Source: Candidatus Micrarchaeia archaeon
Lineage (GTDB): Archaea; Micrarchaeota; Micrarchaeia; Anstonellales; Anstonellaceae
DNA length: 64,000 bases
Direction: 5' to 3'
NCBI GenBank assembly: GCA_041659465.1
Contig: JBAZYD010000001.1
Coordinates: 4,281-68,280 of the forward strand
Both the position numbers and the translations under genes were made by a program. Positions within the stretch are counted from its first letter, which is position 1. Each line of letters opens with the position of its first letter. This document shows positions 12,353-38,917 of the stretch, one piece after another. The notes below the pieces were generated by a model. The model did not search any database, was not told the origin of the DNA, and worked only from the letters and a program-made list of their open reading frames with translations.

Positions 12353-12387
12353 GGAAGGGTTTCCAGGGCAGAAAATAAAAAGGCACA

Positions 12388-14142
12388 TCACTCTACCGTT
12401 ACAGATTTTGCCAAATTGCGCGGCTTGTCGGGGTCCTTTTTCATTTTCACCGCCATGTAGTATGCAAGGAGCTGGAGGGGCACGGCGTAGACTATGGGGA
12501 TGGCAATGGATGGCACGGAAGGCATCCTGAAGGAAAGCGCGCTTTTGCCCAATGCCGACTCGCTGTCGGAAAAGGCGACGAGAAGCGCGTCGCGCGCGGC
12601 GCATTCGCTCATGCTGGATATTGTCTTTTGAAGCGACTCGTCGCTCGGGGCGAGGGCCACCACCACGACATCCTTTTGCAGGAGGGAAAGCGGGCCGTGC
12701 TTGAGCTCGCCTGCCGCGTATGCCTCTGCGTGCAGGTAGGTGATTTCCTTCATCTTGAGAGCGCCCTCAAGCGCGGACGGGAAGGAAAGCGAGCGGCCTA
12801 TGAAGAAGAAGTCCTTGTGCGCGACCAGCTTGCCTGCGAGCGCCTCAAGCTCGCCTGCGCGGGAAAGGATTTGCTCTATCGCTTCGGATGCGTCAGAGAG
12901 CTGCAAAAGCCCCTGCTTTTCGCCGGAAAGCGAAAGCGCGATTTTTGAAAGCACCGCCACCTGCGAGGTGAAGGACTTGGTCGCCACCACCGCAATCTCG
13001 GGGCCGGCGGCGATGTTCACGCATGCGTCGGATTCGCGCCAAAGCGAGCTTCCTGTCACGTTTGTGATGCCGATTATTTTTGCCCCGCCTTTCCTCGCAA
13101 GGCGCACCGCTGAAAGCGTGTCCGCAGTCTCCCCCGACTGCGAAATCGCCACAACGACTCTCTCCTTGCCCGTGCGCGCATATGCGAATTCCGAGCCGAT
13201 TATCACGTCGCAGTTCACTGCGCCGCGGGACTGGAGGAGCTGCTTGAAGACAAGCCCTGCGTAATAGGAGGTGCCGCAGGCGACCACTGCCACCTGCTGC
13301 TGGTTGCGCAGGAGCGCGACCGCGGCAGAGGCATCCGCGGCAAGGGCTTCGCGCATCTTCCCCCCCTGCTCGTGTATCTCCTTTAGCATGAAATGCGCAA
13401 AGCCCTCCTTTTCCGCCATCGCGGCGGTCCAGGCGACAGTGTGCACTTTGCGCCTTGCTTTCTTTCCGCTGTTCCTTATCTCGTAGCCCTCGCGCGTGAA
13501 GCGCACCAGGTCGCCGTCCTCCACGTAGATTACGCGCTTCGTGTACTCGAGGAGCGCGGGGACGTCGGATGCGCAGAACATCTCGCCCTTGCCGATGCCC
13601 AGGATGAGCGGCGGGCCGTTCCTGGAGAGGTAGATGGCCTCCTCGCCCTGGTGCATGCACACGAGGGACCAGGAGCCCGAAAGCTTTGCAACTGCGTTCG
13701 AGAATGCGGCGCCAAAATCCTTCGTTGCCTTGCTTTCCTCCTCCACAAGGTGCGCAATCACCTCGGTATCGGTTTCGGATGCGAACTTGTGCCCCTTGCG
13801 CGAGAGCGCCGTGCGCAGCGAATCGAAATTCTCGATGACGCCGTTGTGCACGAGGTGGATTTTTCCGGAAGAATCGGCGTGCGGGTGCGCGTTTTCCTGC
13901 GTGACGCCGCCGTGCGTCGCCCAGCGCGTGTGCCCTATGCCCATGCTGCCCTCAAGCCGGAGGAAGTTTTGCCTTGCGTGGATGTCGTCTATCCTCCCTA
14001 TGTCCTTTATCGAGGAGATACTGCTGCCCGACACCGTGGCGATGCCTGCGGAGTCGTAGCCGCGGTATTCGAGCTTCTGAAGCCCCCTGAAGATGACCTC
14101 GGAGGCTTTCCGAAAGCCTATGTAGCCGATTATCCCGCACAT
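12388..14142 (-). CDS. glmS: Glutamine--fructose-6-phosphate aminotransferase (isomerising)
   Basis: N-terminal MCGIIGY (Ntn glutamine amidotransferase) followed by two SIS domains. 584 aa. Confidence 0.93.
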   Translation of the reverse strand: MCGIIGYIGFRKASEVIFRGLQKLEYRGYDSAGIATVSGSSISSIKDIGRIDDIHARQNFLRLEGSMGIGHTRWATHGGVTQENAHPHADSSGKIHLVHNGVIENFDSLRTALSRKGHKFASETDTEVIAHLVEEESKATKDFGAAFSNAVAKLSGSWSLVCMHQGEEAIYLSRNGPPLILGIGKGEMFCASDVPALLEYTKRVIYVEDGDLVRFTREGYEIRNSGKKARRKVHTVAWTAAMAEKEGFAHFMLKEIHEQGGKMREALAADASAAVALLRNQQQVAVVACGTSYYAGLVFKQLLQSRGAVNCDVIIGSEFAYARTGKERVVVAISQSGETADTLSAVRLARKGGAKIIGITNVTGSSLWRESDACVNIAAGPEIAVVATKSFTSQVAVLSKIALSLSGEKQGLLQLSDASEAIEQILSRAGELEALAGKLVAHKDFFFIGRSLSFPSALEGALKMKEITYLHAEAYAAGELKHGPLSLLQKDVVVVALAPSDESLQKTISSMSECAARDALLVAFSDSESALGKSALSFRMPSVPSIAIPIVYAVPLQLLAYYMAVKMKKDPDKPRNLAKSVTVE

Positions 14143-14359: not shown

Positions 14360-14473
14360 GCGCCCACCTCCCATCCAGTCTTCCGCGCCATTATTAATAA
14401 ATCATTACCCGGGCAGGCGCCCGCATCCGCGCGGGGAGGGGAATGCTGCAGGGGCGGGGCAGCATGGCGCAAA

Positions 14474-14545
14474 TATGCCGCAGGCGGCACCCTATATGCC
14501 GCAGGCGGCACTATATGTCACATATATAAATATTAAGTGCGATTT
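14474..14545 (+). promoter_or_regulatory. Promoter region of the giant surface-protein gene: two tandem copies of TATGCCGCAGGCGGCAC followed by a TATA-like box (ATATATAAATATTAAG) about 30 bp upstream of the ATG
   Basis: Exact 17-bp direct repeat at ~14476-14492 and ~14497-14513. An A/T-rich box lies immediately upstream of the 14566 start. Confidence 0.5.
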
Positions 14546-14565: not shown

Positions 14566-17500
14566 ATGAGCGATTCCGCACAAATAGGCAAGGCATGCCT
14601 TAGTGGCAACCCTGAAGCGCGCGGCCTTTCCGCGCATTTTTCCCCATTTTTTGTTTTTTTCGCATCCCTGCTGCTGTTTTCAGGAGCCGTGCATGCCGCC
14701 TGCCCCGGAACGGTGTCTGCGGACTACAACATGACCCAGAACGAGACTGCCACCACTACCGCCTGCATAGTCGCCGGCACGGCAGGCATAACAGTCGACT
14801 GCCAGGGGTTCACCATCACACTCAACGGGGGCTCGGCAGTGCCGGCAATCGACGTCAACAGCCAGAACATCACCATCAGGAACTGCGTCATTGCGGAAAC
14901 CAGCGCGACCAACGTGGCATGGGGGGCGCTCCACCTCCGCGCCACCGCCAACAACACCACGGTGACGAACACCAACATAAGCTCGGCCGGCCATTATGCC
15001 ATCTACGCCCTTTCAAGCTACAATAGCTTCACGGACGTGAGGGCGCTCGCCACCACCCAGAACGTCGGCGCAGTGAGGTTCGACGCAAGCAGCTTCAACC
15101 ACCTGGCGAACATGGTGATAAACAAGACGGCAACCGCGAACACGTATGCGCTTTACTGGAACACAGGCGACTCGAACGCGCTTGACAACGTTTTCGCGGA
15201 CGGGTCGGCCGCAGGGACGGCCAAATACGGGGCCTACCTGAACACATTCACCAATGGCAATCTCACCAACTGCGAGTTCAACTCGCTCACCAACTATGCA
15301 GTGTGGCTGACAGGCGGCTCGACAGGGAACAATTTTTCAGCCCCCCAGATAAACACCTCGGGCACTGCGGCCGCGCACGGGTTCTACATCGACTTGTCGT
15401 CTGGCAACAGCATAAGCGACGCCAGCATCAACTCCAGCGGGGTCGGGATATACATCGTCTCAAGCTCCGGCGCGACCAACATCCAGAGGGCGTGGATAAA
15501 CTCCACTGCTAGCTCGGGGATATACATACAGGCGAGCGTGGCATCCGACGCCAACATCATAAACGGAAGCACGGTGAATGCGCTCAACTACCCGCTGTGG
15601 GTGCACCAAAGCTCGTACAACCTCGTGTACAACTCCACGTTCATAAGCGCCGCAGGGCATGCATTCTACACTGACACGGGCACCAACGGCAATGTCTTTG
15701 TCAACAACACGTTCCAGAGCAGGTTCACAACCACTGGCTACTATGGCATGTACTTCGTCTCCGACTCGTCGTACAACCTCATTGAGAACAATACCATATG
15801 GTCGCCCACGTATTACGCCATATATTTCGGCATGAGCAGCAGCTACAACAACATAAGCAGGAACAGCATAACCGCCTCGGCAAACGCAGGCTACGGGGTG
15901 ACGTTTGCGGCAATACCCGCCGACAACAACCAGGTGATAGAGAACAACATAGTGGCGAACGGGTTCGGGATACAGATAATGGGGGATTACAACAACGTGA
16001 GCGGCAACAACGTGGTTTCCAACGCCTCGTCGGGAATCTACCTCTACCTGTCCAATTACAACACGCTGGAAAGCAACAACGTGACTGCGGTGAACAACGG
16101 GATTTACCTCTACACCAGCACCTACAACAACATCACGAACAGCAACTACACGACCAACTCGTCCTACACCGCGTACCTTGCGACCAATGCCGATTACAAC
16201 CGCTTCGCGGGCAACGTGTTCAACCAGACAAGCGGGACTGCGCTCGACGCAAGGATTGGCACCTACATAGTCACCTCCAACTACAACTGGTTCGAGAACG
16301 GCACGATATGGACGTATGGCAGCGACGCGGTGAGGGTAACCACCAGCGCGAACAACAACGTCTTCAGCAACAACATCGTCTACACCAACGCCACCAACTA
16401 CTACGGCGTCCAGGTGACCACCAACTGCCAGTACAACCAGTTCAACGGCAACAACATAACCTCGGAGAAGGGGTATGGCGTGCTGGTGACAACCACCTCG
16501 AAGTACAACACGTTCAACGGGGGCTTCGTGGACGCCTACAGGCAGACGGGCATCACGGTGCAGACCTCGTCCACCTACAACAACTTCTCCAACATGAACG
16601 TGCGCACAGGCATAAACGCCAACGGCGGGTACGGGCTTTACCTGACAGGCTCGGCAAACAACAACAAGTTCACCAACATGACATTCGCCTCGAATGCCAC
16701 CTATTGCGCCTACCTTTACAACGTGGCGAACAACAACGAGTTTTCCAACGTTTCCTTCTTCTCAAACACGTCCATCGCAATCTACATGCTCCAGAACGTG
16801 CAGGGCAACGTGTTTAGGAACTTTTCCGCGACCTCGAACAACACCTACGCGCTGGACCTGAACGGCAACGGCAACGTGGTCAACTACAACTCGTTCAGGC
16901 ACGGGTACCTCCAGAGCAACTCCACGGCAGGCGGGACCGCGGCGCTGTACCTTTACAACGCGGTGAACTACAACAACTTCACCAACATGACAATCACCAA
17001 CCTGGGCGGCATGGGCGTGTACTTTTACGTGGCTGCCAACAACATATTCAACAACACCACGATAAACGCCGGCCCGCTGACAAACGCATACGGCATGCAG
17101 CTGCAGACGCTCTCGCAGAACAACCAGTTGGTGAATTCCGTGATAAACACCGCCGCGCCCATAGTGAGCGGCGGCTATGACATGGTGATAGGGAACTTGG
17201 CGGCCCAGCCTTCCAGCCTGGTCGCGACAAACACCTCGTTCGACACCATGAGCGGGGTGAACATACCCAATGTGGACACCAATTCCTACCTGAACCTCAC
17301 ATGGTACCTGAGGGCAAACGTCTCAAGCCTTGCAGGCGCCCCGGTGGAGGGCACAAGCGTGGCCATCTACAACGCAAACGGGGCATTGGTCTCGAACAAC
17401 GCCACCGACTCGTCCGGGCTCACCCCCTGGGTGGCGGCCATGCAGTACAAGCAGACGCAGTCGGGCTCCGGCCCGTATATCTATACATTATTCTATCCGT

Positions 17501-20500
17501 ACAACTTCACAGCCACCATAGGGGCGGTGTCAATGAACGACACGCTCCCCACGCTCACCGCAAGCACGGTGAAAAGCATAAGCATGAACGCCACGGCATG
17601 CGGGGTGCTCTCGTCGGATTACACGCTCACCAACCCTGTCTACGGAGGCACGGACTGCTTCACCGCGGCCGCATACGGGCTGACGCTGGACTGCAACGGG
17701 TATGCGGTGAACTACTCGCGCACGGGCGCGGGATGCGGGCTGGCCATCGGCTCGTTCACGAACATAACCGCAAGGAACTGCGCGTTCGCGCAGGGCGCCT
17801 TCAACTCCTCCTCATCCGCATCGGTGTGCCTCTCGTCGTATGCCAATGCCACCATCGCAAACAGCACGTTCTCAACGCAGGGGGGCGCGAACGGCTATGC
17901 GTTCTCCCTGTCGGACAGCTTCGCAACCGCGCTCAACGACAGCTTCGCATACTCAAGCGCCCTTGTGTCGGGCGCGTCGCTCCTCCACAGGAAGTGGTAT
18001 GTCTCCACCAACGTCACCGACCTTGCAGGGAACCAGGTGATGTCCGCCAGCCTGAATATCACGGATGCGCAAAACACGACCATCGGCCCGCTTGCGGTCT
18101 CGTACGGCGCGGCAAGCGTGCCGCCGCTGACGCAGTACATGCAGGGCGCATCGGGCGCGACGTATTACAGCAACTACAGCTTCTATTCATGGGTGGGCAA
18201 CTCCAACAGGACGGTCCAGCTGAACCTCACCACGAACTCCGTGGTATCCATCCCGATAAACGCCTCCACCTGCGGGGTGTTCACAGCATCGATGACGCTG
18301 AAGAACGGCATCTACTCCCCGGGAACCTGCCTGGTGGCCGGGGCGCACTCGCTTACCGTGAACTGCAACGGCTACTCCATCAACTACTCGCAGGCGGGCA
18401 ACGGGCACTATGGCATCGACACGGCGGGGTACAACAACATAGAGGCAATCAACTGCTCGTTCGTGTCCGGCAATGCAAGCGCCGCTGATTCCTATGCGGT
18501 GTACATCAACAATTCGGCCGACTTCAGGCTGCACAATTCCACCGTGGAGGGGAGGGCGGCAAGGCTCAACACCACCTCCCAGGCGCAGTTCATAGGCACC
18601 AGGTTCGACAACGGGACCGTGGACTACTCGGACGCCTTAAGCACGCTGACCTCGAAGCAGTATGCGTACGTGCATGCCATAGGGCTTGCGGGCGAGAGCG
18701 TCAACGGCTCGGCCGTGAACGCCACGGACGCGTTCGGGAGCGTGGCGGCAAGCGGCACCACGGACGGGAACGGCACGGTCACGTTCCTGCTCACGCAGTT
18801 TGTCCAGGACCTTTCCGGGCTTGTCCCGTACGACCCCTACAACTTCACTGCGGCGCACCCTGAAACGCAGGTCGTGAATTACACCTACACCCCCATGAAC
18901 GAGAGCAAGGACGTGACAATCGGCCTGATTTCGGCAAACATCGCGATAGACTCGCCCAATGCCGGGCAGATTTTCATCCAGGGCGACCCTGTCCAGGGCG
19001 GGCCTGTGAACATCGTGGTGAACGAGACTAGGGGGCAGGGGTGGATAGACAACGTCACGGTGCAGGTGCAAGGCGACCCGTTCAACTACACCTATCAGGC
19101 AGTGGAGGTATCGCCCAACCAGTGGGGGTACAACTACACCATAGACCTGAGCCAGGTGTCGGCCACGCTCACCATAGTGGCAAGGGGATACAACGGCACT
19201 GCGTTCGTGAGCGCTACCCGTGATTTCGTGGTCACCCGCTCCTCGGGCTCGGGCGTGCTGCCACCCGTCGTAAGCTATTTCTGCCCCGACTACACCTACC
19301 TCAAGGCGAACAGCACGGAAAACATAAGCATATCCGCGGACCTTGACACCGTGCTTTACAGCATGAGCCTCAACGTCACCTACCCGAACGGGTCAAGCTC
19401 GCTCCTGTCGCCCATTGCCTCGTCATCCGGAAGCGACTATGTCTACAACAGGACATGGCAGCTTTCAATCAACCAGACAGGGAACTATACCCTGTATGCC
19501 ACCGTCACGGACGTGAACGGCAACAACGCCAATTCCACGAGGCGCATATATTCGGTGCCGCAGAACGTGACTGCGAGCCTGTCGGCAAACGGGCCTGACG
19601 CGCTTTACATGAACGACGTGTGCAGCGGGCGCACGCTGTTTTCCGGGGCCAACCTGACAGGGGTGTCGGTTGCGCCGGGGAATTACACCATGGTTGCGGA
19701 GGAGTACGGCCGCGCCAAGCTCTCGTTTTTGGACTTCAACGTGACCTCGGCAAGCGGCGTGTTCCTCAACTACTCCCGCGAATCCGCCGTGGGGCTTCTC
19801 CCGCCCACCAACAGGAGGAACGTATTGCTGTTCTCGACCCATGTGCTGGGCGGCAGGTTCAGCTCAGTGGACGTGCGCATGAACTACAGCTCTGAGGCAG
19901 GCAGCCTGGTTGCGGAATACAGCCTGGACGCGTATGCCTGCGCGGACTTCTACAACTGCACCTGGTCGGCCATGAACTACACGCTCAGCGTGCCTGCCAA
20001 GATAATGAACGCCAGCGTCTCCAACCTGAGCGGGCTCTACGGGATATTCGAGCCTGCATACCAGGACCCCATAATCATCCCAATCAACGTGGTGCCGCCG
20101 CAGGTGGCGCTGCTTGCGCCAAGCCCCTCGTACGCAATCGCCAACTCGACCATCACGGTGTACCTCAATGCGGACCTGGACGCGAACTTGTCTGGGGCAT
20201 GGGTCAACATCACCTACCCCGGCGGCTCGGCAGCCAACCTGACCAACCTGACATTCTCGAACGGCACGGGCTACACGTACAACCTCACCTACTCGTTCGT
20301 GGCGAACGAGACAGGAACATATTACATATCCGCGCGCGTGAACGACACCTACCACCAGAATGGCACGGCAATCGCGCAGGCGCACGTGCTGGCGGCTGCG
20401 CAGGAAGTGAACATCACGTCCTACGGCGTGGTTTCCTCGCTTCTCCTCGACCAGGGGATAGGCGCAACCGTGCTTTCAGGCGCGGGCTCCATGTCGGGAA

Positions 20501-23500
20501 GCGCGGCCGTAGGCAACTACACCGCGCGGTTGGGCACGCAGAATGCGAATGCCAGCTTTGACTTTTACCAGCTTGAGGTGCTGGGAGGGAACTTCAGCCT
20601 CCTGAACTTCAGCGAGCTCTCGCTGCTCACCGCGCCCGTGACCCATCCTGCCAACAGGAGCGCGCTCTACCTGTTCGATGCTGCAGCCGCCGGGATGAAC
20701 TACAGCGGCGCAGGGGTGAGGGTGAACTACACGCAGAGCCTGCCAAGCATAATTTCCGAGGTGGCCCTTGAGGCATGGCATTGCGGAAGCATTGGAAACT
20801 GCACAAGCATGTCAAGGGTGAATGCCACAATCGACACTGCGCTGCACACAGCCACGCTCAACCTGTCCGAAGTTTCAGGCGTGTACGGGATTTACCAGCC
20901 GCTCCTGTCCATCACCACCCCTGTGCAGGCGCCGCTGCCAGTGGTGGCAAGGTTCACAGCCAACAGGATAAACGCCGCCCAGAACGCCAATGTCACAGTC
21001 TACCTCGACCTGGAGATGGGCGCCAACCTGTCGCTTGCCAATGTAAGCGTGGCAAGGCCTTCGGGCGGCGTCCAGTTCCTCTCGAACAGCTCGTATGCCA
21101 ATGGCACCAACCACACCTACAACCTGACATATACGGTATACACGAATGAAAGCGGCACCTACTCGCTTTCCGCGTTTGTAAGGGACGTCTACGCGCAGAA
21201 CACCACGGCAAACGCGACATTCTTTGCAGCCGCCAACGACCTGGTGATGATTACATCGTACGGCCTGGACAACTCAAGCCTGATTGACCCGGGGACGGGC
21301 GCCGTTGCGCAGACCGGCGGGAATTTGCTTGCTGCAAGCCTGCCGCTTGGCAACTACACGTTTGCCGCAAATGCCTCGATTGTAAACATCACGCTGTACC
21401 AGCTGCAGGTGACAGGGGTGATGAATGGAATCAACCACACCAACCTGTCAACCTCGGCAGTGGCTGCGCCTGCGAACAGGAGCGGGCTTTGCCTCTTCAG
21501 CGCTGCCTCGCTTGCCGGCGCCGCCTATGGCAGGGCAAGCGTGGCGATAAGGTATGGAAGCCTTGTTGGAAGCATAGTGTCCGAGGCATCCCTTGAGGTA
21601 TGGCAGTGCGAAAGCGTGGCGAACTGCTCCAGCATGGAGCGGGTGAATGCCACAATCGACTCAGCGCTCCACACCGCCACGTTCAACCTTTCCACAGTTT
21701 CCGGCGTGTACGGGCTTTACCAGCCGCTGCACACGGTGAGCACCTCGGTGCAGGCAGCTGCGCCGCAGATAGCGCTTTTTGCGCCAAGCAGGGCAAGCCC
21801 AGTGAGGAACACCAATGTGACCGTGTACCTGAACGCCGCGCTGGGCGCCCAGCTGTCAAGCGCCGTGGTCACCGTAGCCAAGCCCTACAGCGGGCTGCAG
21901 ACGCTGGTGAACGCGACGTATTCCAACGGCACCAACTACACCTACAACTACACGTATGTCGTGTATGCCAACGAGCCCGACACCTACACGCTCACCGCGG
22001 TGGTGACGGACATCTATGGCCAGAACGCCACTGCCACAAGCTCCTTTGACGCGCAGTACAACACCAATGTGGTGGTGACCTCGTACGGCATGGAAGCCAC
22101 GCGCGTGGTGGACTCCGGGGTCGGCACTGCGCTTCTCTCGGGCGGCAACGTGCTTTCAGGCAGCATCCCCCCGGGAACATACACGTATGCCGCTGACGCA
22201 AGGAACGTAACGTTCACGCTTTTGCAGCTGCCGATAAGCGCAAGCCTGGCAGTGCTCAACTACACCAACTGGTCGGATTCCGCAATCCCCTCCCTCAACA
22301 ACAGGAGCACGCTGTATGTGTTTAGCGTCGGCAACCTGAGCGCGGGGTATTCGCATGCAAGCGCCGCGATAAACTACACCTGGCTTTCTGCAAGGGTGAT
22401 ATCCGAGCCATCGCTTGAGGTCTGGCAGTGCCCAAGCGTTGCAAACTGCTCGGGCATGTCAAGGGTGGATGCCGCAATCGACACGGCATCAGACACAGTC
22501 ACGTTCAACATGACGGATGTTTCCGGCGTGTACGGGCTTTACCAGCCGTCGCAGACCGTGACCCAGACAGTGCACGCAGGGCTTCCGGTAATAACCAGGC
22601 TTGCGCCAAGCGCATACAACACGCTTCTGGGCGAGAATGTCACCATCTACCTGGATGCCACCCTGAGCGTCAACCTGTCCTCCACCCTGGCAAGCCTGTC
22701 CTACCCGTCAGGGGCGGTTGCGAACCTGACCAACGTGACATTCGCCAACGGGAGCGGCTATGACTACAACTACACATATGCGTTCATTGCGAACGAGACC
22801 GGGCGCTATGGCATCACAGCAACAGTATACGACATATACGGCCAGAATGCGACCGCAAACGCCTCGGTGTGGGTGGCTGCCGCGAACGAGAGCGTGTCCA
22901 TTGCCTCGCCAGGGGCGAATTCCTCGCTCCTTTATGATTCGGGAATGGGCACTGCCGTGCTTTCAGGCAACTCCACCATGGAGGGGAACATCACCCCTGG
23001 GAACTACAGCGCGCAGGTCAATGCGTCAAGCGTGGCATTCAGCTTCACTTCGCTTGAGGTGCAAGGCGGGAACCACACCCTCCTGTCGTTTTCCAGCCTT
23101 GCAACAGGCAGCGCTACTGCGCCTGCCAACCGGAGCGAGATGTATGCGTTTTCCGCAAATGCGACAGGCATGGCGTTTGGCTCTGCGGGTATGGAGATAG
23201 ACTACTCGGCTTTGCTTGGCGGCGTGGTGTCGGAATCCGCGCTTGAGGTCTGGGCATGCGAAAGCGTGGCGAACTGCAGCAACATGACCAAGCTTTCCGC
23301 CGCCATCAACACGGCCTCCGATAAAGCCGTCGCGCAGTACTCGGCAGCATACGGGGTCTATGGCCTGTACCAGGCGTCCCAGACCGTCACAGTGACCGAA
23401 ACCGTGACCAATATAGTGCACCAGAGCAACACGAACACCGTGACTAAGGAGGTCAAGACAAACGTCACGGTTGTGAAGAACGTCCCTGTGCCATTCGAGG

Positions 23501-24234
23501 TCCCGGTAGAGGTGAGCGTGCCCTCCTACACCACGGTGCGGCTGCTCTCCGGCCCGCAAAGCGTGGAGATGCACCCGGGCGAAACCACCAATGTCGAGAT
23601 AACGGTGCAAAACAGCCTGGGCAAGGACATAGGCACGGTGACACTTACTGTGCAGCACGGGGACGGGGTGGAGGCGAGCCTTTCCAGGGACACGTTCACC
23701 CTTGCTTCGGGCGCATCGGAAAAGGCAATGCTTGCCATCAAGGCAAGCGCAGGCACAGGCAGCACGAGCGTGAGGATAGCCGCGGACGCGCCATCGATAA
23801 AGATAAAGGACGAGATGTCATTAGCGGTGATGGTGTCAGCGGGCCTTGAAAAGGACAAGCTCGCTGCGCAGCAGAAGATAGAGTTTGCAAAGAAGCTGAT
23901 AGCCGACAACCCCGAGTGCCTGGATTTGCAGGAGGGGCTTGCCAGCGCGGCGATGTACATAGGCAGCGGCAAGTACGCAAGCGCCGAGGCAAGGGCGCAA
24001 AGCACCATATCCAGCTGCTCGGGCATTATGGCGCTGCGCGGCAAGGCCGTCATCCAGACCGAGAAGGTGCCGCAGGTCGACCTTGCGGCAAGCCTGGCAA
24101 TACCTGTGGCGTTCATGGGGGCCGCAGGCGCAGCCGCCCTGGTGGTCTTCATGTTCGCAAAGAGCAGGGAAAGGAGGAAGCGGGACATAGGCAAGCGCAT
24201 TGCTGCAACCCACGGCAAGGGCAGCGCCCAGTGA
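14566..24234 (+). CDS. Giant (3222 aa) cell-surface protein. It has an N-terminal signal/anchor, a right-handed parallel beta-helix (PbH1 / NosD-like) repeat region, dozens of N-glycosylation sequons, five tandem ~276-aa Cys-pair repeats, and a C-terminal TM helix with a basic tail
   Basis: PbH1-type repeats such as ENNTIWS, SRNSITAS, SGNNVVSNASSGIYLYLSNYNTLESNNVTAVNNGIYLY lie at roughly aa 330-800. N-x-S/T sequons are extremely dense. Each repeated module carries LEVWQCESVANCS-M-RVNATIDTA...VSGVYGLYQP. The C-terminus reads ...AALVVFMFAKSRERRKRD. Confidence 0.85.
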   Translation: MSDSAQIGKACLSGNPEARGLSAHFSPFFVFFASLLLFSGAVHAACPGTVSADYNMTQNETATTTACIVAGTAGITVDCQGFTITLNGGSAVPAIDVNSQNITIRNCVIAETSATNVAWGALHLRATANNTTVTNTNISSAGHYAIYALSSYNSFTDVRALATTQNVGAVRFDASSFNHLANMVINKTATANTYALYWNTGDSNALDNVFADGSAAGTAKYGAYLNTFTNGNLTNCEFNSLTNYAVWLTGGSTGNNFSAPQINTSGTAAAHGFYIDLSSGNSISDASINSSGVGIYIVSSSGATNIQRAWINSTASSGIYIQASVASDANIINGSTVNALNYPLWVHQSSYNLVYNSTFISAAGHAFYTDTGTNGNVFVNNTFQSRFTTTGYYGMYFVSDSSYNLIENNTIWSPTYYAIYFGMSSSYNNISRNSITASANAGYGVTFAAIPADNNQVIENNIVANGFGIQIMGDYNNVSGNNVVSNASSGIYLYLSNYNTLESNNVTAVNNGIYLYTSTYNNITNSNYTTNSSYTAYLATNADYNRFAGNVFNQTSGTALDARIGTYIVTSNYNWFENGTIWTYGSDAVRVTTSANNNVFSNNIVYTNATNYYGVQVTTNCQYNQFNGNNITSEKGYGVLVTTTSKYNTFNGGFVDAYRQTGITVQTSSTYNNFSNMNVRTGINANGGYGLYLTGSANNNKFTNMTFASNATYCAYLYNVANNNEFSNVSFFSNTSIAIYMLQNVQGNVFRNFSATSNNTYALDLNGNGNVVNYNSFRHGYLQSNSTAGGTAALYLYNAVNYNNFTNMTITNLGGMGVYFYVAANNIFNNTTINAGPLTNAYGMQLQTLSQNNQLVNSVINTAAPIVSGGYDMVIGNLAAQPSSLVATNTSFDTMSGVNIPNVDTNSYLNLTWYLRANVSSLAGAPVEGTSVAIYNANGALVSNNATDSSGLTPWVAAMQYKQTQSGSGPYIYTLFYPYNFTATIGAVSMNDTLPTLTASTVKSISMNATACGVLSSDYTLTNPVYGGTDCFTAAAYGLTLDCNGYAVNYSRTGAGCGLAIGSFTNITARNCAFAQGAFNSSSSASVCLSSYANATIANSTFSTQGGANGYAFSLSDSFATALNDSFAYSSALVSGASLLHRKWYVSTNVTDLAGNQVMSASLNITDAQNTTIGPLAVSYGAASVPPLTQYMQGASGATYYSNYSFYSWVGNSNRTVQLNLTTNSVVSIPINASTCGVFTASMTLKNGIYSPGTCLVAGAHSLTVNCNGYSINYSQAGNGHYGIDTAGYNNIEAINCSFVSGNASAADSYAVYINNSADFRLHNSTVEGRAARLNTTSQAQFIGTRFDNGTVDYSDALSTLTSKQYAYVHAIGLAGESVNGSAVNATDAFGSVAASGTTDGNGTVTFLLTQFVQDLSGLVPYDPYNFTAAHPETQVVNYTYTPMNESKDVTIGLISANIAIDSPNAGQIFIQGDPVQGGPVNIVVNETRGQGWIDNVTVQVQGDPFNYTYQAVEVSPNQWGYNYTIDLSQVSATLTIVARGYNGTAFVSATRDFVVTRSSGSGVLPPVVSYFCPDYTYLKANSTENISISADLDTVLYSMSLNVTYPNGSSSLLSPIASSSGSDYVYNRTWQLSINQTGNYTLYATVTDVNGNNANSTRRIYSVPQNVTASLSANGPDALYMNDVCSGRTLFSGANLTGVSVAPGNYTMVAEEYGRAKLSFLDFNVTSASGVFLNYSRESAVGLLPPTNRRNVLLFSTHVLGGRFSSVDVRMNYSSEAGSLVAEYSLDAYACADFYNCTWSAMNYTLSVPAKIMNASVSNLSGLYGIFEPAYQDPIIIPINVVPPQVALLAPSPSYAIANSTITVYLNADLDANLSGAWVNITYPGGSAANLTNLTFSNGTGYTYNLTYSFVANETGTYYISARVNDTYHQNGTAIAQAHVLAAAQEVNITSYGVVSSLLLDQGIGATVLSGAGSMSGSAAVGNYTARLGTQNANASFDFYQLEVLGGNFSLLNFSELSLLTAPVTHPANRSALYLFDAAAAGMNYSGAGVRVNYTQSLPSIISEVALEAWHCGSIGNCTSMSRVNATIDTALHTATLNLSEVSGVYGIYQPLLSITTPVQAPLPVVARFTANRINAAQNANVTVYLDLEMGANLSLANVSVARPSGGVQFLSNSSYANGTNHTYNLTYTVYTNESGTYSLSAFVRDVYAQNTTANATFFAAANDLVMITSYGLDNSSLIDPGTGAVAQTGGNLLAASLPLGNYTFAANASIVNITLYQLQVTGVMNGINHTNLSTSAVAAPANRSGLCLFSAASLAGAAYGRASVAIRYGSLVGSIVSEASLEVWQCESVANCSSMERVNATIDSALHTATFNLSTVSGVYGLYQPLHTVSTSVQAAAPQIALFAPSRASPVRNTNVTVYLNAALGAQLSSAVVTVAKPYSGLQTLVNATYSNGTNYTYNYTYVVYANEPDTYTLTAVVTDIYGQNATATSSFDAQYNTNVVVTSYGMEATRVVDSGVGTALLSGGNVLSGSIPPGTYTYAADARNVTFTLLQLPISASLAVLNYTNWSDSAIPSLNNRSTLYVFSVGNLSAGYSHASAAINYTWLSARVISEPSLEVWQCPSVANCSGMSRVDAAIDTASDTVTFNMTDVSGVYGLYQPSQTVTQTVHAGLPVITRLAPSAYNTLLGENVTIYLDATLSVNLSSTLASLSYPSGAVANLTNVTFANGSGYDYNYTYAFIANETGRYGITATVYDIYGQNATANASVWVAAANESVSIASPGANSSLLYDSGMGTAVLSGNSTMEGNITPGNYSAQVNASSVAFSFTSLEVQGGNHTLLSFSSLATGSATAPANRSEMYAFSANATGMAFGSAGMEIDYSALLGGVVSESALEVWACESVANCSNMTKLSAAINTASDKAVAQYSAAYGVYGLYQASQTVTVTETVTNIVHQSNTNTVTKEVKTNVTVVKNVPVPFEVPVEVSVPSYTTVRLLSGPQSVEMHPGETTNVEITVQNSLGKDIGTVTLTVQHGDGVEASLSRDTFTLASGASEKAMLAIKASAGTGSTSVRIAADAPSIKIKDEMSLAVMVSAGLEKDKLAAQQKIEFAKKLIADNPECLDLQEGLASAAMYIGSGKYASAEARAQSTISSCSGIMALRGKAVIQTEKVPQVDLAASLAIPVAFMGAAGAAALVVFMFAKSRERRKRDIGKRIAATHGKGSAQ
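19900..23400 (+). repeat. Five in-frame tandem repeats (period ~825-850 bp, ~276 aa) inside the giant gene
   Basis: Conserved blocks start at ~19921, 20768, 21594, 22418 and 23247, each reading gag g(c/t)(a/c) tgg ca. tgc ... gtgtacgg. ctttaccagcc. Confidence 0.8.
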
Positions 24235-24311: not shown

Positions 24312-25328
24312 ATGGCAATCGAGGCGAAAAAGGCAGGGGCAACCGAGCAGCACCTTGACAAGAAGACGGTCGAGAAATACTCCGAGAAGTTCGCAAAGAT
24401 AAGGGACGGCATGAAAAAGGCGGTCGTGGGCCAGGAGCACGCGGTGGACGCCATATTGCGCGGTCTCATCGCGAACGGGCACGTGCTCATCGAAGGGTAC
24501 CCAGGCGTTGCAAAAACCCTGATAATGATGAGCATGGCCACGCTCACGGGCTGCAAGTACAAGAGGATACAGTTCACGCCAGACATGCTGCCCTCGGACA
24601 TAACGGGCGTGACATCCTATTCGCCCGAGAAGGGCTTTTACACAATCAAGGGCCCAGTGTTCACCAACTTCGTCCTCGCCGACGAAATCAACCGCGCGCC
24701 GGCCAAGGTGCAGTCCGCGCTTCTCGAGGCCATGCAGGAGAAGAAGGTGACCATCGGGAGCACCACGTACGACCTTGACCTGCCCTTCGTGGTGCTTGCC
24801 ACGCAGAACAACATAGAGTCGCTGGGCGTATATCCCCTTCCCGCCGCGCAGCTGGACAGGTTCATGTTCAAGATAAACATGGGCTACCCCGAGCCCGTGG
24901 AGGAGCGGACGATATTGCGGCACAACATAACGTCCGCAACGTTCGAGTCGCTGGGCGTGGAGCCGGTCATGACGCCTTCCGAGATACTGGAGATACAGTC
25001 GAACGTGAAGAGGATATACTGCACCGAGGAGATAGAGGAGTACATCGTCTCCATAGTGCACGCGACAAGGGACCACAAGGGGGCGGGCATAGACCTTGGC
25101 AGGCATGTGGAGTACGGAGGGAGCCCGCGCGCGTCCATTGCCATCTACATGGGCGCGCAGGCCAACGCCATGATGAGGGGAAGGACGTTTGTGACCCCGC
25201 AGGATGTCAAGGATGTGGCGCACGACGTGCTGCGGCACAGGATAATCCTGAACTACGAGGGGCAGGCGGAGATGGTGAGCATCGACGCGCTGATAACCGA
25301 GGTGCTCGAGAAGGTAAGGGTGCCGTAA
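24312..25328 (+). CDS. MoxR-family AAA+ ATPase
   Basis: Walker A EGYPGVAKT, Walker B VLADEINRA, ...LATQN, and a C-terminal MoxR helical domain. Alternative start at 24258. Confidence 0.88.
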   Translation: MAIEAKKAGATEQHLDKKTVEKYSEKFAKIRDGMKKAVVGQEHAVDAILRGLIANGHVLIEGYPGVAKTLIMMSMATLTGCKYKRIQFTPDMLPSDITGVTSYSPEKGFYTIKGPVFTNFVLADEINRAPAKVQSALLEAMQEKKVTIGSTTYDLDLPFVVLATQNNIESLGVYPLPAAQLDRFMFKINMGYPEPVEERTILRHNITSATFESLGVEPVMTPSEILEIQSNVKRIYCTEEIEEYIVSIVHATRDHKGAGIDLGRHVEYGGSPRASIAIYMGAQANAMMRGRTFVTPQDVKDVAHDVLRHRIILNYEGQAEMVSIDALITEVLEKVRVP

Positions 25329-25356: not shown

Positions 25357-26256
25357 GTGCAGACCATGATGAAGCTAGATATCGACCCGAAGCCCAGGAT
25401 TGAGAACCTGGAGCTGACCACGCACAGGCTGGTGACGTCCAACTTCATGGGCGACTACCAGTCGGTGTTCCGGGGCAGGGGCGTGATTTTCGAGTCATAC
25501 CGCGAGTACAGCAACAGCGACGACGCGTCCGAAATCGACTGGAAGGCGTCCATGCGCTGCGGCAAGACCATGGTGAAGGAATACGTGGAGGAGAGGAACC
25601 TGGACGTGTTCTTCCTCATGGACTCGTCCTACACCATGGTGTTCGGCTCGCAAAAAAAGCTCAAGCACGAGTATGCCGCGGAGATGGTGGCGTCCATGGC
25701 GTTTGCGATACTTGACAGGGGCGACGCTGTGGGGCTGGGCATGTTCTCGGACAAAGTGCAGGGCTTCCTTCCGCCCGAAAGGGGGCATGCGCAGTACAGA
25801 AGGCTGCTGCGCGAGATAGCCAGGCCTGAGAATTACGACGGGCCATGCAACTTCGAGGCAGCGGTGCGCACCTGCCTGCAGAGGCTCAAGCCCCAGACGC
25901 TCCTCGTGCTTGTGACTGACGGGGTGAACATGGACGGGAACTGGCGCATACCCCTCAAGGTGGCGAACAGGAAGTTCGAGGTGCTGCTCATGCTGGTGCG
26001 CGACCCGCGCGACGACGAGCTGCCATCTGGGGTGGGGCACGTGTCGGTGGAGAACCCGAGCACGGGCGAGCAGATGCTTTTGGACACCGAGGGGATAAGG
26101 GGCGAGTATGCCGCCGCGGCAAAGGGGATACTGGACTCGAACATGGCGCTTTTCCACCACTGCGGCATTGCGGACGTGCCTGTCATGAGGACGGACGAGG
26201 ACTTCACCAAGCACGTGGTGGGTTATTTCCAGAGAAGGAAGATGCGCATGAGATGA
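25357..26256 (+). CDS. DUF58-domain protein (MoxR partner)
   Basis: FRGRGVIFESYREYSNSDDASEIDWKAS is the DUF58 core. It sits between a MoxR gene and a VWA gene, the canonical arrangement. Confidence 0.8.
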   Translation: MQTMMKLDIDPKPRIENLELTTHRLVTSNFMGDYQSVFRGRGVIFESYREYSNSDDASEIDWKASMRCGKTMVKEYVEERNLDVFFLMDSSYTMVFGSQKKLKHEYAAEMVASMAFAILDRGDAVGLGMFSDKVQGFLPPERGHAQYRRLLREIARPENYDGPCNFEAAVRTCLQRLKPQTLLVLVTDGVNMDGNWRIPLKVANRKFEVLLMLVRDPRDDELPSGVGHVSVENPSTGEQMLLDTEGIRGEYAAAAKGILDSNMALFHHCGIADVPVMRTDEDFTKHVVGYFQRRKMRMR

Positions 26257-26327: not shown

Positions 26328-27266
26328 ATGGACTTCACATTCGAGCACAGCATTTACCTGCTTTTCCTCCTGCTTATCCCGCTCCTTGTCGCGCTGCACT
26401 TCTACAGCCTGCATTTCGTGCGCCAAAAAGCCATGCGGTTCGCGAACTTCGAGGCGCTTGAGAAGATAGTGCAGGCAAGGCAGGTGGTGCCGAACAACTA
26501 CCTCATACTTGCCATGAGGGCGCTCACGCTGGTGGGCTTCACGCTTGCGGCATCGGGAATCACCGCGCATTACCAGGCCCAGGCGTCAGCATACGACTAC
26601 ATAGTGGCCATGGACATCTCCAACAGCATGCAATCGTCCGACCTGCTGCCAGACAGGCTGGGGGCGTCGAAAGCTGCGGTTGCAGGGTGGGTATCCGCGC
26701 TGCCGCAGGGTACGCATGTGGGGATTGTCACGTTCTCCTCGCAGGCCAACCTTTTTGCAGAGCCGACAGGCGACCTGTGGATGGCCGCGCTCAAGACCGC
26801 GGGCATTATAGGGGACAGGAGCGGCGGCACGGCGATTTGCGAGGCCCTCAAGGCAGGCACCAACTGGCTTTCCAGCGCCAAGAACCCAGGCGCCATAGTG
26901 CTGGTTTCCGACGGGCAGAACAATGCCGGCTGCCTGCTTGAGGAAGGGATTGCCTATGCCAAGGGCAGGGGCGTGAAGGTGTATTCCATAGGGGTTGGAA
27001 GCGCCGCAGGCGGGGCGGTGGAAGGGCTCCCAGGCACTGTCTTCACGCTTGACGAGGCAGACCTGAGGAAGGTTGCGGACGGCACAGGCGGGGCATATTA
27101 CCGCGCATCCGACTCGGACGGCCTGAAGGCGGCGTTTGCCAGCCTGGTGGCGCCAGGCATGAGGGAGGAAAGCGTGCCGCTTGCCATCCCGCTCATGATG
27201 CTCTCGTTCCTGTTCGTGTTCATCGACTGGGGGCTTTCAATCTCAAGGTACAGGGCGATACCTTAA
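26328..27266 (+). CDS. von Willebrand factor A (VWA) domain membrane protein (BatA-like)
   Basis: N-terminal TM helices, a MIDAS-like DISNSM...SGGT motif, and a C-terminal TM. Confidence 0.8.
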   Translation: MDFTFEHSIYLLFLLLIPLLVALHFYSLHFVRQKAMRFANFEALEKIVQARQVVPNNYLILAMRALTLVGFTLAASGITAHYQAQASAYDYIVAMDISNSMQSSDLLPDRLGASKAAVAGWVSALPQGTHVGIVTFSSQANLFAEPTGDLWMAALKTAGIIGDRSGGTAICEALKAGTNWLSSAKNPGAIVLVSDGQNNAGCLLEEGIAYAKGRGVKVYSIGVGSAAGGAVEGLPGTVFTLDEADLRKVADGTGGAYYRASDSDGLKAAFASLVAPGMREESVPLAIPLMMLSFLFVFIDWGLSISRYRAIP

Positions 27267-27333: not shown

Positions 27334-27906
27334 TCAGAAAATCTGGTGCAAAAGCAGCCTGAACTTGTCGGCCATGGAGAGCAGGAACTCGCGGTCGTTT
27401 CGGGGGATGTTCTCTGAGACGATTCCGGATATCTTCTTTTTCGTGGCGCCCTTGATGTGGTCGCCCTCGCTTTCCATTTCCGCGATGTACTGGTGAAGCA
27501 TCTTCTCCTGCGCGTGGCGCTTCTCCTCGGCAATCTTGCGGAACTCCTCGCAGCCGTATTCCATCATGGCAAGCTCGTCGAGGAATGCATTGACCTCGTC
27601 GCGAAGCGAGGGGGGGAAGTGCTTCTTGCTTGCTATCTCCTCCATTATCTCCTGGAATGTGACCTCGTACTTTATGCCAAGCGCCTCGCGGAAAGCTGCC
27701 TTCACAAGAGAGTAGAACTCCTTTGCCTTGAGGTGGACGTTCTTGTCAGTCACGGTGTCGCGGAGCTCCTGCAGCTGGGCGCTGAATTTCTGGACGGATT
27801 CGCGCTTCAGGCCGGCATGGTGCTCGGAAACCGGCTTTGGGGCCGGCTTTTTCCGCAGGAAGAAATTGAAAACGCCTTTGAGCATGGAATCACGTGGTTT
27901 TTCCAA
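27334..27906 (-). CDS. Hypothetical protein
   Basis: 190-aa ORF with plausible composition and no recognisable motif. Confidence 0.45.
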   Translation of the reverse strand: MEKPRDSMLKGVFNFFLRKKPAPKPVSEHHAGLKRESVQKFSAQLQELRDTVTDKNVHLKAKEFYSLVKAAFREALGIKYEVTFQEIMEEIASKKHFPPSLRDEVNAFLDELAMMEYGCEEFRKIAEEKRHAQEKMLHQYIAEMESEGDHIKGATKKKISGIVSENIPRNDREFLLSMADKFRLLLHQIF

Positions 27907-38910: not shown

Positions 38911-38917
38911 TCAGCGT

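What the first reader, a model, noticed from the sequence alone, without database searches (positions are those of the whole stretch)
14566..24234. 9.7-kb gene for a 3222-aa parallel-beta-helix surface protein, sequon-dense, with five tandem ~276-aa repeats
This is a single ORF of 3222 codons. The N-terminal ~800 aa carry many PbH1-type right-handed beta-helix repeats (NosD, pectate-lyase or adhesin-like). The remainder carries dozens of N-x-S/T sequons, pointing to a heavily N-glycosylated S-layer or adhesin-type protein. Five near-periodic modules each hold a conserved Cys pair (LEVWQCESVANCS) and VSGVYGLYQP. The C-terminus is a single TM helix followed by an Arg/Lys-rich tail. Such giant proteins in small archaea (e.g. 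DPANN) are thought to mediate host or cell-cell attachment. The internal repeats give scope for recombinational length variation.
Basis: partly seen in the sequence, partly recalled or inferred. Interest (0 to 1): 0.6.

Follow-up and report, generated by a model that had tools for sequence, protein, structure and literature searches.

The report
Giant DPANN surface protein, MoxR-linked
This is a real 3222-residue, membrane-anchored, sugar-coated surface protein of a tiny symbiotic archaeon (Micrarchaeota); such proteins are expected there, but it ends in an undescribed anchor module and always sits in front of a MoxR ATPase operon whose function is still unknown.

Summary
The ORF at 14566-24234 is intact and encodes a signal peptide and a parallel beta-helix (Pfam Beta_helix 110 bits). 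It has 171 N-x-S/T sequons, against 67±7 in shuffles. It carries five ~276-aa modules, each with a Cys pair, one C-terminal TM helix and a basic tail.

Full-length orthologues at 37-56% identity occur in Candidatus Micrarchaeota MAGs, so it is not an assembly artefact. The modules are old: 51-64% DNA identity, longest shared word 30 bp. Fast recombinational length variation is therefore unlikely. Across species the layout is M1 plus 0-4 Mx modules.

Two points are new.
- **Anchor cassette.** The last ~280 aa hold a CARDB-like beta-sandwich, a three-helix domain with an invariant NPEC...C Cys pair, then the TM helix and tail. No Pfam or PDB match covers the helical domain or the cassette as a whole. 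It ends proteins of 0.36-6.4 kaa recovered from Micrarchaeota, Aenigmatarchaeota, Woesearchaeota and Nanoarchaeota MAGs.
- **Operon link.** All 11 Micrarchaeota-type loci with downstream sequence read giant gene, MoxR, DUF58, BatA-type VWA. Two other lineages pair a cassette gene with the same operon in different arrangements.

Best reading: a glycosylated adhesin or fibre whose anchor works with a Bat-like MoxR/VWA system. Function is inferred, not shown.

The parts
14473..14514 (.). Two tandem 21-nt copies, each containing the palindrome TGCCGCAGGCGGCA, just upstream of the promoter. Possible regulator binding sites. Specific to this window.
   Evidence: absent from the orthologous upstream region of L009
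14520..14537 (+). TATA-box-like element ACATATATAAATATTAAG, about 30-45 nt upstream of the ATG. This implies a very short leader.
   Evidence: Sequence. The element, the leader and the first codons are conserved in L009.
14566..24234 (+). Giant surface-protein gene, 3222 codons plus stop
   Evidence: collinear 48%-identical orthologue P0004
14566..14697 (+). Signal peptide: long n-region, then h-region FSPFFVFFASLLLFSGAVHA
   Evidence: N-terminus conserved in L009
14698..17205 (+). Right-handed parallel beta-helix 1 (aa 45-880), Asn-rich
   Evidence: Pfam Beta_helix and NosD above cutoff
17206..19230 (+). Middle region (aa 881-1555). Beta-sandwich domains alternate with two short beta-helix segments (aa 1011-1135, 1236-1350). 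An Ig-like 'pre-module' domain follows (aa ~1440-1552) and is shared with distant family members.
   Evidence: Internal repeats; sub-threshold Pfam hits bMG3, CarboxypepD_reg, Beta_helix, Big_7; shared with P0002 and P0007
19231..20055 (+). Module M1 (aa 1556-1830): Ig-like domain plus a larger beta-sandwich with a CxxxxxC pair. It is a distinct type, orthologous in all eight relatives compared.
20065..23376 (+). Four Mx modules (aa 1834-2937), 41-51% identical to each other. 79% of Asn across the five modules lie in sequons.
   Evidence: AF2 model of M5
23377..23532 (+). Linker rich in Thr/Val/Glu/Lys/Asn, predicted disordered
   Evidence: pLDDT 28-36
23533..23841 (+). Cassette part 1: CARDB-like beta-sandwich (aa ~2990-3092) with an invariant Asn
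   Evidence: AF2 pLDDT 87-96; Foldseek matches to Ig-like/MG/PapD-like sandwiches only; weak CARDB or DUF7507 hits in some members
23842..24045 (+). Cassette part 2: three-helix domain (aa ~3093-3160) with invariant Cys3118 and Cys3151 and a near-invariant Glu3117 (NPEC turn)
   Evidence: no Pfam or PDB match
24088..24231 (+). C-terminal TM helix (aa ~3175-3199) and Arg/Lys-rich cytoplasmic tail
24312..25328 (+). MoxR (AAA_3) ATPase. GGAGGG lies 6 nt before its ATG. It starts 77 nt after the giant gene's stop, with no T-run terminator between.
   Evidence: 52-92% identical copies next to cassette genes in other loci
25357..26256 (+). DUF58 protein (VWA-like, no TM segment)
26328..27266 (+). 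BatA-type VWA membrane protein: BatA N-terminal domain, three hydrophobic segments, MIDAS motif DISNS
   Evidence: same layout as Borrelia BB0173, whose VWA domain faces the periplasm (PMC5700661)
27334..27906 (-). Conserved ~185-aa helical protein, convergent on the operon. Found in all Micrarchaeota-type loci that reach it. No Pfam hit.

Best explanation
The gene encodes a Sec-exported, heavily N-glycosylated surface fibre or adhesin of a Micrarchaeota (DPANN) archaeon. A single C-terminal TM helix holds it in the cytoplasmic membrane.

Reading outwards from the membrane, the parts are:
- a sequon-free anchor cassette (CARDB-like sandwich plus a three-helix domain that is probably disulfide-stapled);
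- a disordered linker;
- a stalk of one M1 and four Mx modules that is probably glycan-coated;
- alternating sandwich and short-helix domains;
- an ~830-aa parallel beta-helix as the distal, probably ligand-binding, head.

It is the first gene of a conserved operon with a MoxR AAA+ ATPase, a DUF58 protein and a BatA-type membrane protein. The VWA/MIDAS domain of that protein is expected to face outwards.

The most likely mechanism is that the cassette is the part recognised by this Bat-like system. BatA's external MIDAS site would bind the cassette; the near-invariant Glu of the NPEC turn is a candidate ligand. The cytoplasmic MoxR-DUF58 pair would drive assembly, positioning or remodelling of the anchored protein.

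Shown: the anatomy, the homology, the lineage and the gene linkage. Inferred: glycosylation, disulfides, adhesion, and any physical contact with BatA.
For: Anatomy.

Lineage: the closest loci are Candidatus Micrarchaeota/Micrarchaeia MAGs. An intron-containing tRNA lies in the window.

Reality of the gene: there are intact orthologues of 3181, 3187 and ~3240 aa with five modules. The promoter and start codon are conserved.

Operon. The order giant, MoxR, DUF58, BatA is found in the window and in L002, L003, L004 group, L006, L009, L010, L013, L031, L033 and L035. That is 11 of 11 Micrarchaeota-type loci with downstream sequence. Upstream flanks differ in L003 and L006. Gaps between the giant gene and MoxR range from a 1-nt overlap to 254 nt, and are ≤117 nt in nine of the eleven.

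Independent arrangements:
- About 1400-aa cadherin/Ig proteins share only the cassette and lie divergently 100-170 bp from MoxR-DUF58-BatA in 10 Aenigmatarchaeota-like contigs.
- In L036/L039 a 1556-aa cassette protein overlaps the start of a 410-aa TM protein, which is followed by MoxR-DUF58-BatA.

Cassette. It is always at the extreme C-terminus, a median of 12 aa from the end. It is sequon-poor across the family: 1.05 per 100 aa against 6.56 upstream.

BatA homologue. BB0173 has the same three-TM layout, with its VWA domain shown experimentally to be periplasmic (PMC5700661).

Disulfides. Exported DsbA-like and thioredoxin proteins are encoded 6 kb away.

Precedent. The bifidobacterial PFNA cluster has the order fn3 (secreted FN3 glycoprotein), MoxR, DUF58, tgm (PMC8430577).
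Against: - No experimental datum bears on this protein or on any family member.
- The cassette-MoxR link is not universal. L043 and L046 have full flanks, and L007 and L008 have partial flanks; none has a MoxR gene nearby. P0002 is followed instead by a transglutaminase-core gene.
- Many other 'unlinked' loci end at contig edges, so the true frequency of linkage is unknown.
- The collection scans used the pattern NPEC[LQ]DL, which biases the sample of distant loci.
- MoxR-DUF58-VWA operons are common, and their substrates are unknown even in bacteria.
- Beta-helices also occur in polysaccharide-degrading enzymes.
- No AglB gene lies in the window to back the glycosylation inference.
Confidence: 0.6

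Rival explanations
1. It is the S-layer (lattice-forming cell-wall) protein of the organism rather than an adhesin or fibre.
For: It has a C-terminal TM anchor, dense sequons and a high Thr/Ser/Asn content, like many archaeal S-layer glycoproteins. Micrarchaeota show S-layer-like structures (PMC8784108).
Against: No S-layer Pfam or NCBIfam family is hit. The ectodomain in front of the cassette is freely exchangeable across the family: beta-helix, LamG, cadherin, Gly-rich repeats, with lengths of 0.36-6.4 kaa. That fits modular adhesins, not a lattice protein. Module number varies 1-5 between close relatives.
Confidence: 0.12
2. The beta-helix head is an enzyme, a polysaccharide lyase or glycosidase, displayed on a stalk to attack the host envelope.
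For: The right-handed parallel beta-helix is the fold of pectate lyases, polygalacturonases and phage tailspikes. Pfam Beta_helix is hit.
Against: Only the generic Beta_helix and NosD models are hit. No pectate-lyase or GH28 family appears, and there is no PDB sequence relative at E<0.01. No catalytic motif was identified.
Confidence: 0.08
3. The adjacency to MoxR-DUF58-BatA reflects shared regulation of envelope genes or inherited synteny. The MoxR system does not act on this protein.
For: Within Micrarchaeota the neighbours GlmS/TRAM and NurA/PTH2 are also often syntenic. Some cassette proteins lack a MoxR neighbour.
Against: The link survives where both flanks differ (L003, L006). It recurs in three different gene arrangements in lineages whose cassette proteins share only ~20-27% identity. 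Start and stop codons overlap or lie 23-80 nt apart.
Confidence: 0.2
4. The long frame is an assembly artefact, a collapse or chimera of repeats.
For: Tandem repeats in a metagenome-derived sequence.
Against: The modules are only 51-64% identical in DNA. Collinear intact orthologues occur in independent assemblies from Logan, JGI, ENA and NCBI.
Confidence: 0.01

Closest known systems
Large strain-specific secreted surface proteins of Micrarchaeota (Mia14) and beta-helix/PKD/beta-propeller surface proteins of methanogens
   Same: Archaeal, secreted, very large and modular. They contain beta-helix or Ig-like/CARDB domains and are proposed to mediate cell-cell contact (PMC5498576, citing Jing et al. 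2002). Adhesin-like proteins of gut methanogens are similar (PMC11532034, title and abstract only).
   Different: Those descriptions mention neither the 276-aa module, nor the NPEC...C anchor cassette, nor a MoxR link (MoxR has 0 occurrences in PMC5498576 and PMC8784108).
Bat (Bacteroides aerotolerance) operon: MoxR, DUF58, BatA, BatB, BatC, BatD, BatE
   Same: The same core of three genes in the same order, MoxR(AAA_3)-DUF58-BatA. BatA has an identical three-TM plus VWA/MIDAS layout. The bacterial operon also encodes BatD; from my own knowledge this is an extracytoplasmic, TM-anchored beta-sandwich protein.
   Different: There is no BatB, BatC or BatE here. The giant protein scores below the Pfam BatD cutoff (18.3 against 24.1 bits), and that hit lies in a module, not the cassette. 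The partner protein is 5-10 times larger, precedes rather than follows the ATPase, and is archaeal.
PFNA cluster of Bifidobacterium (pkb2, fn3, aaa-atp/MoxR, duf58, tgm)
   Same: A large secreted beta-sandwich (FN3) glycoprotein gene lies immediately upstream of MoxR and DUF58. The FN3 protein is thought to be an adhesin and a possible MoxR client (PMC8430577).
   Different: The third partner there is a transglutaminase, not BatA. There is a kinase and no beta-helix, and the lineage is bacterial. One distant family member here (P0002) is likewise followed by a transglutaminase-core gene.
Bacterial giant repeat adhesins (RTX/BIg-type such as LapA and MpIBP; from my own knowledge)
   Same: The logic is the same: membrane-proximal anchor, long stalk of tandem beta-sandwich 'extender' modules, distal ligand-binding region.
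   Different: Those are anchored N-terminally in the outer membrane and secreted by a type I system. Their extender repeats are near-identical and Ca2+-rigidified, not glycosylated. There is no sequence relationship.
NosD (periplasmic copper-binding maturation protein of N2O reductase)
   Same: It shares the PbH1 beta-helix repeat; Pfam NosD is hit at 52 bits.
   Different: NCBIfam NosD_copper_fam scores 18.7 bits against a cutoff of 300. There is no nos context. This is a fold resemblance only.

Membership tests
Right-handed parallel beta-helix (PbH1) proteins, Pfam PF13229 / PF05048 | Several PbH1 repeats scoring above the curated cutoff | tested here: met
   Beta_helix scores 110 bits against 25.9, in 10 stretches. 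NosD scores 52.2 against 23.6.
NosD copper-maturation family (TIGR04247) | Whole-protein score at or above 300 bits | tested here: not met
   18.7 bits; no nos genes nearby.
Archaeal N-glycosylated surface proteins | Sec signal, extracytoplasmic domain, and N-x-S/T sequons enriched beyond composition | tested here: met
   171 sequons against 67±7 in shuffles and 64 for the reversed motif. Cytoplasmic neighbours have 0-0.4 per 100 aa against 5.3 here.
Archaeal N-glycosylated surface proteins | Glycans actually attached by AglB | not testable with these tools
   Needs glycoproteomics. No AglB gene was looked for beyond this window.
Archaeal S-layer proteins | Membership of a known S-layer sequence family | tested here: not met
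   No S-layer family in Pfam or NCBIfam.
Archaeal S-layer proteins | Forms a 2-D lattice | not testable with these tools
   Needs cryo-ET or isolation.
PGF-CTERM / archaeosortase substrates | A PGF motif before the C-terminal TM helix, recognised by the NCBIfam model | tested here: not met
   No such NCBIfam hit. The C-terminus reads ...AIPVAFMGAAGAAALVVFMFAKSRERRKRD, without PGF.
BatD (Pfam PF13584) | Score at or above 24.1 bits | tested here: not met
   18.3 bits, one stretch at aa 2721-2764 inside module 5; 15.9 bits in module 4.
Bat-like MoxR operon (MoxR proper + DUF58 + BatA) | AAA_3 ATPase, DUF58 and BatA-N/VWA membrane protein adjacent on one strand | tested here: met
   AAA_3 186 bits, DUF58 153 bits, VWA_2 57 bits; BatA N-terminal 21.6 bits, just under its 25.9 cutoff. 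Walker A GYPGVAKT, Walker B LADEINR and MIDAS DISNS are read.
DPANN C-terminal anchor cassette (defined here) | At the extreme C-terminus: a beta-sandwich with invariant Asn, a three-helix domain with (N)PEC...C, a TM helix and a basic tail | tested here: met
   Invariant N, C, A, C and near-invariant E in 16-19 sequences. HMM E=1e-77 for the window protein. 57 of 151 retrieved cluster representatives carry it, ending a median of 12 aa from the C-terminus.

The most novel reading that the evidence does not exclude
The ~280-aa C-terminal cassette is the docking module of a surface-protein handling system found in several DPANN lineages. Structurally unrelated ectodomains (beta-helix, cadherin, LamG and others) would be mounted on the same anchor. 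That anchor would be bound by the outward-facing MIDAS site of a BatA-type VWA protein, through the near-invariant Glu of the disulfide-fixed NPEC turn. From the cytoplasm, MoxR-DUF58 would assemble, position or mechanically regulate it. This would be an integrin-like, ATP-coupled 'inside-out' control of an adhesin. It would also give the first defined client for the MoxR-proper/Bat systems, whose function I believe has been unknown since their description in Bacteroides.
Probability: 0.25. Interest if true: 0.75.

Novelty: new variant of a known kind. Interest (0 to 1): 0.55.

Why it matters
DPANN archaea live attached to other cells, and their giant surface proteins are the prime candidates for that contact. 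Almost nothing is known about how these proteins are anchored or controlled.

This locus supplies two things. The first is a recognisable, unannotated anchor module that could be used to list candidate attachment proteins in DPANN genomes. The second is a specific, testable partner set: MoxR, DUF58 and BatA.

If the link is functional, it would also give a concrete client to MoxR-proper/Bat operons. These are widespread in bacteria, including Bacteroides, Borrelia, Leptospira, Mycobacterium and Bifidobacterium, but are mechanistically unexplained.

If the link is not functional, the gene is simply a good example of an expected class.

Tried and rejected
Searches that failed or gave little:
- The full-length search in the 5.8-billion-protein index timed out.
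- The word-indexed search with the C-terminal 563 aa gave only 2 hits, and with a 16-sequence profile only 1. The N/S/T-rich words probably saturate the candidate list. The index-free HMMER search was what worked.
- Its profile unintentionally included P0002's N-terminal Ig repeats. The '4059 hits' therefore overcount the family. I re-counted the cassette with my own HMM.
The closer alignment A4 restricted the scan to NPEC[LQ]DL, a sampling bias.

Structure and family searches:
- Foldseek on the two-part model gave only generic strings of Ig/MG/S-layer domains with TM<0.2.
- On the cassette model, Foldseek matched only the ~100-residue sandwich.
- PDB sequence and profile searches found nothing.
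- Pfam on ten sub-segments gave only sub-threshold hits.

Other checks:
- TRF finds no DNA-level tandem repeat for the modules.
- The bacterial-type promoter and terminator scan was uninformative, at or near shuffle expectation.

Rejected assignments: NosD function, PGF-CTERM anchoring, BatD membership, assembly collapse, and a rapidly recombining repeat array.
Full report
**Observation.**
- The ORF at 14566-24234 (+) is present exactly as described: 3222 codons with an ATG start.
- Pfam places a right-handed parallel beta-helix in the N-terminal part. Beta_helix scores 110 bits in ten stretches and NosD 52 bits, both above their cutoffs.
- The NCBIfam NosD family model scores 18.7 bits against a cutoff of 300. 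The protein therefore shares the fold but is not a NosD.
- N-x-S/T occurs 171 times, against 67.5±7.3 in composition-preserving shuffles and 64 for the reversed motif.
- In the modules 79% of all Asn lie in sequons. In the Asn-rich beta-helix it is 29%. In the last 285 residues there is one sequon.
- Cytoplasmic neighbours carry 0-0.4 sequons per 100 aa, against 5.3 here.
- Only two hydrophobic segments exist: an N-terminal signal peptide and a helix at aa ~3175-3199, followed by KSRERRKRDIGKR.

**Repeats.**
- Tiled self-comparison and an HMM built from the repeats define five tandem modules at aa 1556-2937. Each has a CxxxxxC pair.
- Module 1 is a distinct type, 27-31% identical to the others. 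Modules 2-5 are 41-51% identical to each other.
- At DNA level the modules share 51-64% identity, and the longest exact match is 30 bp. TRF does not see them.
- Other internal repeats exist. aa 907-1100 resembles aa 1138-1325. The N-terminal cap of the beta-helix (aa 45-155) recurs at aa 1011-1119 and again after aa 1236. The middle region therefore alternates short beta-helix segments with beta-sandwich domains.

**Is it real, and whose is it?**
- An index-free HMMER search of 1.84 billion cluster representatives found a collinear orthologue, P0004. It is 3181 aa and 48% identical over 3217 columns.
- A scan of one genome per GTDB species found the closest relatives in Candidatus Micrarchaeota/Micrarchaeia MAGs. 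In L009 the C-terminal 400 aa are 56% identical, and the neighbouring MoxR, NurA and GlmS are 92%, 90% and 83% identical.
- The TATA-like box, leader and first codons are conserved between the window and L009.
- The window also has a 96-nt tRNA that Rfam finds and ARAGORN does not, which suggests an intron.

**Evolution of the module array.**
- In eight relatives the layout is one M1 plus n Mx modules. n is 4 in the window, P0004, L009 and L013; 2 in P0006; 1 in P0012 and P0015; and 0 in P0019.
- M1 modules are orthologous across species, averaging 52% identity against 30% to Mx.
- Mx modules are about as similar within a protein (47.8%) as between proteins (44.8%). There is only a weak positional signal, 48.9% against 45.6%.
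- Copy number has changed over evolutionary time. The present array is old and diverged, and four species keep exactly five modules. This does not look like a fast, recombination-driven contingency locus.

**Structure.**
- An AF2 model of module 5 plus the C-terminus has a mean pLDDT of 70. It shows an Ig-like domain, a larger beta-sandwich carrying the Cys pair, a disordered Thr/Val/Glu-rich linker, a further beta-sandwich, three helices and a long TM helix.
- A second model of the last 263 aa, built with 16 homologues, reaches pLDDT 83, and 87-96 in the folded parts.
- Foldseek against the PDB matched only the ~100-residue sandwich. The matches were the Ig linker of a sialidase, complement MG domains, PapD-like/ASH domains and the Fn3-like domain of subtilases.
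- Nothing matched the helical domain or the whole cassette.
- Sequence and profile searches of the PDB found nothing at E<0.2.
- Pfam gives only occasional weak CARDB or DUF7507 hits in some family members.

**The C-terminal cassette.**
- Alignments of 16-19 sequences, down to 16-20% identity, keep four invariant residues: an Asn in the sandwich, two Cys and an Ala. A Glu in the motif (N)PEC is nearly invariant.
- The NPEC motif falls at the turn between helices 1 and 2. The second Cys lies in helix 3. This suggests a disulfide staple, which is inference.
- My cassette HMM finds the cassette in 57 of the 151 retrieved representatives. It is always terminal, a median of 12 aa from the end, on proteins of 363-6446 aa.
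- The cassette is sequon-poor across the family, with 1.05 per 100 aa against 6.56 upstream.
- In the fetched loci it ends proteins of about 530, 1400, 1560 and 2000-3300 aa. These come from Micrarchaeota, Aenigmatarchaeota, Woesearchaeota, Nanoarchaeota and unclassified MAGs.
- The ectodomains in front of it differ completely: beta-helix, LamG, cadherin/Ig and Gly-rich repeats.

**Gene context.**
- Directly downstream on the same strand lie three genes:
  - MoxR at 24312-25328 (AAA_3, 186 bits), with GGAGGG 6 nt before its ATG;
  - DUF58 at 25357-26256;
  - a BatA-type VWA membrane protein at 26328-27266, with a DISNS MIDAS motif.
- A conserved ~185-aa ORF converges on them at 27334-27906 (−).
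- The same order is found in every Micrarchaeota-type locus that has downstream sequence: the window, L002, L003, the L004 group, L006, L009, L010, L013, L031, L033 and L035. That is 11 of 11.
- Gaps between the giant gene and MoxR range from a 1-nt overlap to 254 nt. The link holds even where the flanks differ (L003, L006) and where the giant protein is only ~26% identical (L006).
- Two further arrangements occur in other lineages:
  - In ten Aenigmatarchaeota-like contigs, a ~1400-aa cadherin/Ig protein sharing only the cassette is transcribed divergently from MoxR-DUF58-BatA, 100-170 bp away.
  - In L036/L039, a 1556-aa cassette protein overlaps the start of a 410-aa TM protein, which is followed by MoxR-DUF58-BatA.
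- The link is not universal. L043 and L046 (full flanks) and L007 and L008 (partial flanks) lack it. P0002 is followed instead by a transglutaminase-core gene.
- Many other loci end at contig edges. The scans were also restricted to NPEC[LQ]DL, so frequencies cannot be estimated.

**Mechanism.**
- Established points:
  - MoxR-family AAA+ ATPases work with VWA-domain partners as assembly or maturation chaperones (summarised in PMC8430577).
  - The Borrelia BatA homologue BB0173 has the same three-TM layout. Its VWA/MIDAS domain was shown to face the periplasm (PMC5700661).
- By homology, the archaeal BatA VWA domain should face outwards, next to the membrane-proximal cassette.
- I therefore propose the following:
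  - The giant protein is a glycosylated stalk-and-head adhesin or fibre.
  - Its sequon-free cassette is the part that contacts the Bat-like system.
  - The invariant acidic NPEC turn is a candidate MIDAS ligand.
  - MoxR-DUF58 acts from the cytoplasm.
- Exported DsbA-like and thioredoxin proteins encoded 6 kb away fit extracellular disulfide formation.
- All of this beyond anatomy and gene linkage is inference.

**Comparison with known systems.**
- Large, strain-specific secreted surface proteins are already described for Micrarchaeota, and beta-helix surface proteins for methanogens (PMC5498576). The protein class is therefore expected.
- The three-gene core is that of the bacterial Bat operon. 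The order 'secreted beta-sandwich glycoprotein, MoxR, DUF58, membrane partner' has a precedent in the bifidobacterial PFNA cluster.
- I found no paper connecting DPANN surface proteins with MoxR. Four papers hold both 'DPANN' and 'MoxR'; none of the three listed concerns DPANN surface proteins, judging by title and abstract.
- No database family covers the module or the helical anchor domain.
- I file this as a new variant of a known kind.

**Verdict.** Interest is moderate. The protein itself is ordinary for DPANN. The conserved anchor cassette and its repeated association with MoxR-DUF58-BatA form a concrete, testable lead.

Noticed in passing
window 14473-14514: Two tandem 21-nt copies (ATATGCCGCAGGCGGCAC...), each holding the palindrome TGCCGCAGGCGGCA, abut the TATA-like box of the giant gene. 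The promoter is conserved in L009 but these palindromes are not. They may be a lineage-specific operator.
   Followed up: partly
window 38000-42000: GC drops to 0.40-0.42, against 0.55-0.60 elsewhere. The four ORFs at 38299-41568 have no Pfam hit. This is probably a foreign or mobile island.
   Followed up: partly
window 53408-53503: A 96-nt tRNA is found by Rfam (52 bits) but missed by ARAGORN. It is probably an intron-containing archaeal tRNA.
   Followed up: no
window 42131-48484 (-): A complete-looking LysW-type Lys/Arg biosynthesis cluster: M20 peptidase, class-III aminotransferase, amino-acid kinase, semialdehyde dehydrogenase, LysX ATP-grasp and ornithine carbamoyltransferase. This is more biosynthetic capacity than is usually credited to DPANN.
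   Followed up: partly
window 30263-31123 and 31263-31853: Two exported thiol-disulfide oxidoreductases, one DsbA-like and one thioredoxin with WCSHC. Each has an N-terminal hydrophobic segment and a low-complexity linker. They are relevant to the conserved Cys pairs of the giant protein.
   Followed up: partly
window 33562-35637 (-): A 691-aa NHL-repeat surface protein with a signal peptide, 14 sequons, a long helical region, a C-terminal TM helix and a KKKQ tail. It lacks the cassette.
   Followed up: partly
window 11177-12604 (-): A 475-aa LamG_3 (concanavalin-like) protein lies next to GlmS, upstream of the giant gene. LamG proteins are reported as expanded in DPANN (PMC5498576).
   Followed up: no
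window 27334-27906 (-); L003, L004, L006, L009, L010, L012, L013, L033-L035: A ~185-aa helical protein with no Pfam hit always converges on the BatA gene in Micrarchaeota-type loci (28-78% identity). It may be a fifth component of the system.
   Followed up: partly
L014 3450-7345; L019 778-4004: Woesearchaeota and Nanoarchaeota contigs carry two tandem ~530-640-aa proteins that each end in the cassette. This small form of the family consists of little more than one domain plus the anchor.
   Followed up: no
L036 10624-11856: A 410-aa helical protein with an N-terminal TM segment is inserted between the cassette protein and MoxR. Its start overlaps the cassette gene's stop. It may be a lineage-specific adaptor.
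   Followed up: no
L004 6734-7894 (-): An IS605 OrfB/TnpB (Cas12f-like) gene sits between TRAM and the giant gene in the P0019 lineage. This shows the upstream junction is a site of insertion.
   Followed up: no
L001 1-1497: P0002 (980 aa) is the tail of a longer gene. That gene is broken by a run of N in the scaffold and continues off the contig, so its annotated length is an underestimate.
   Followed up: yes
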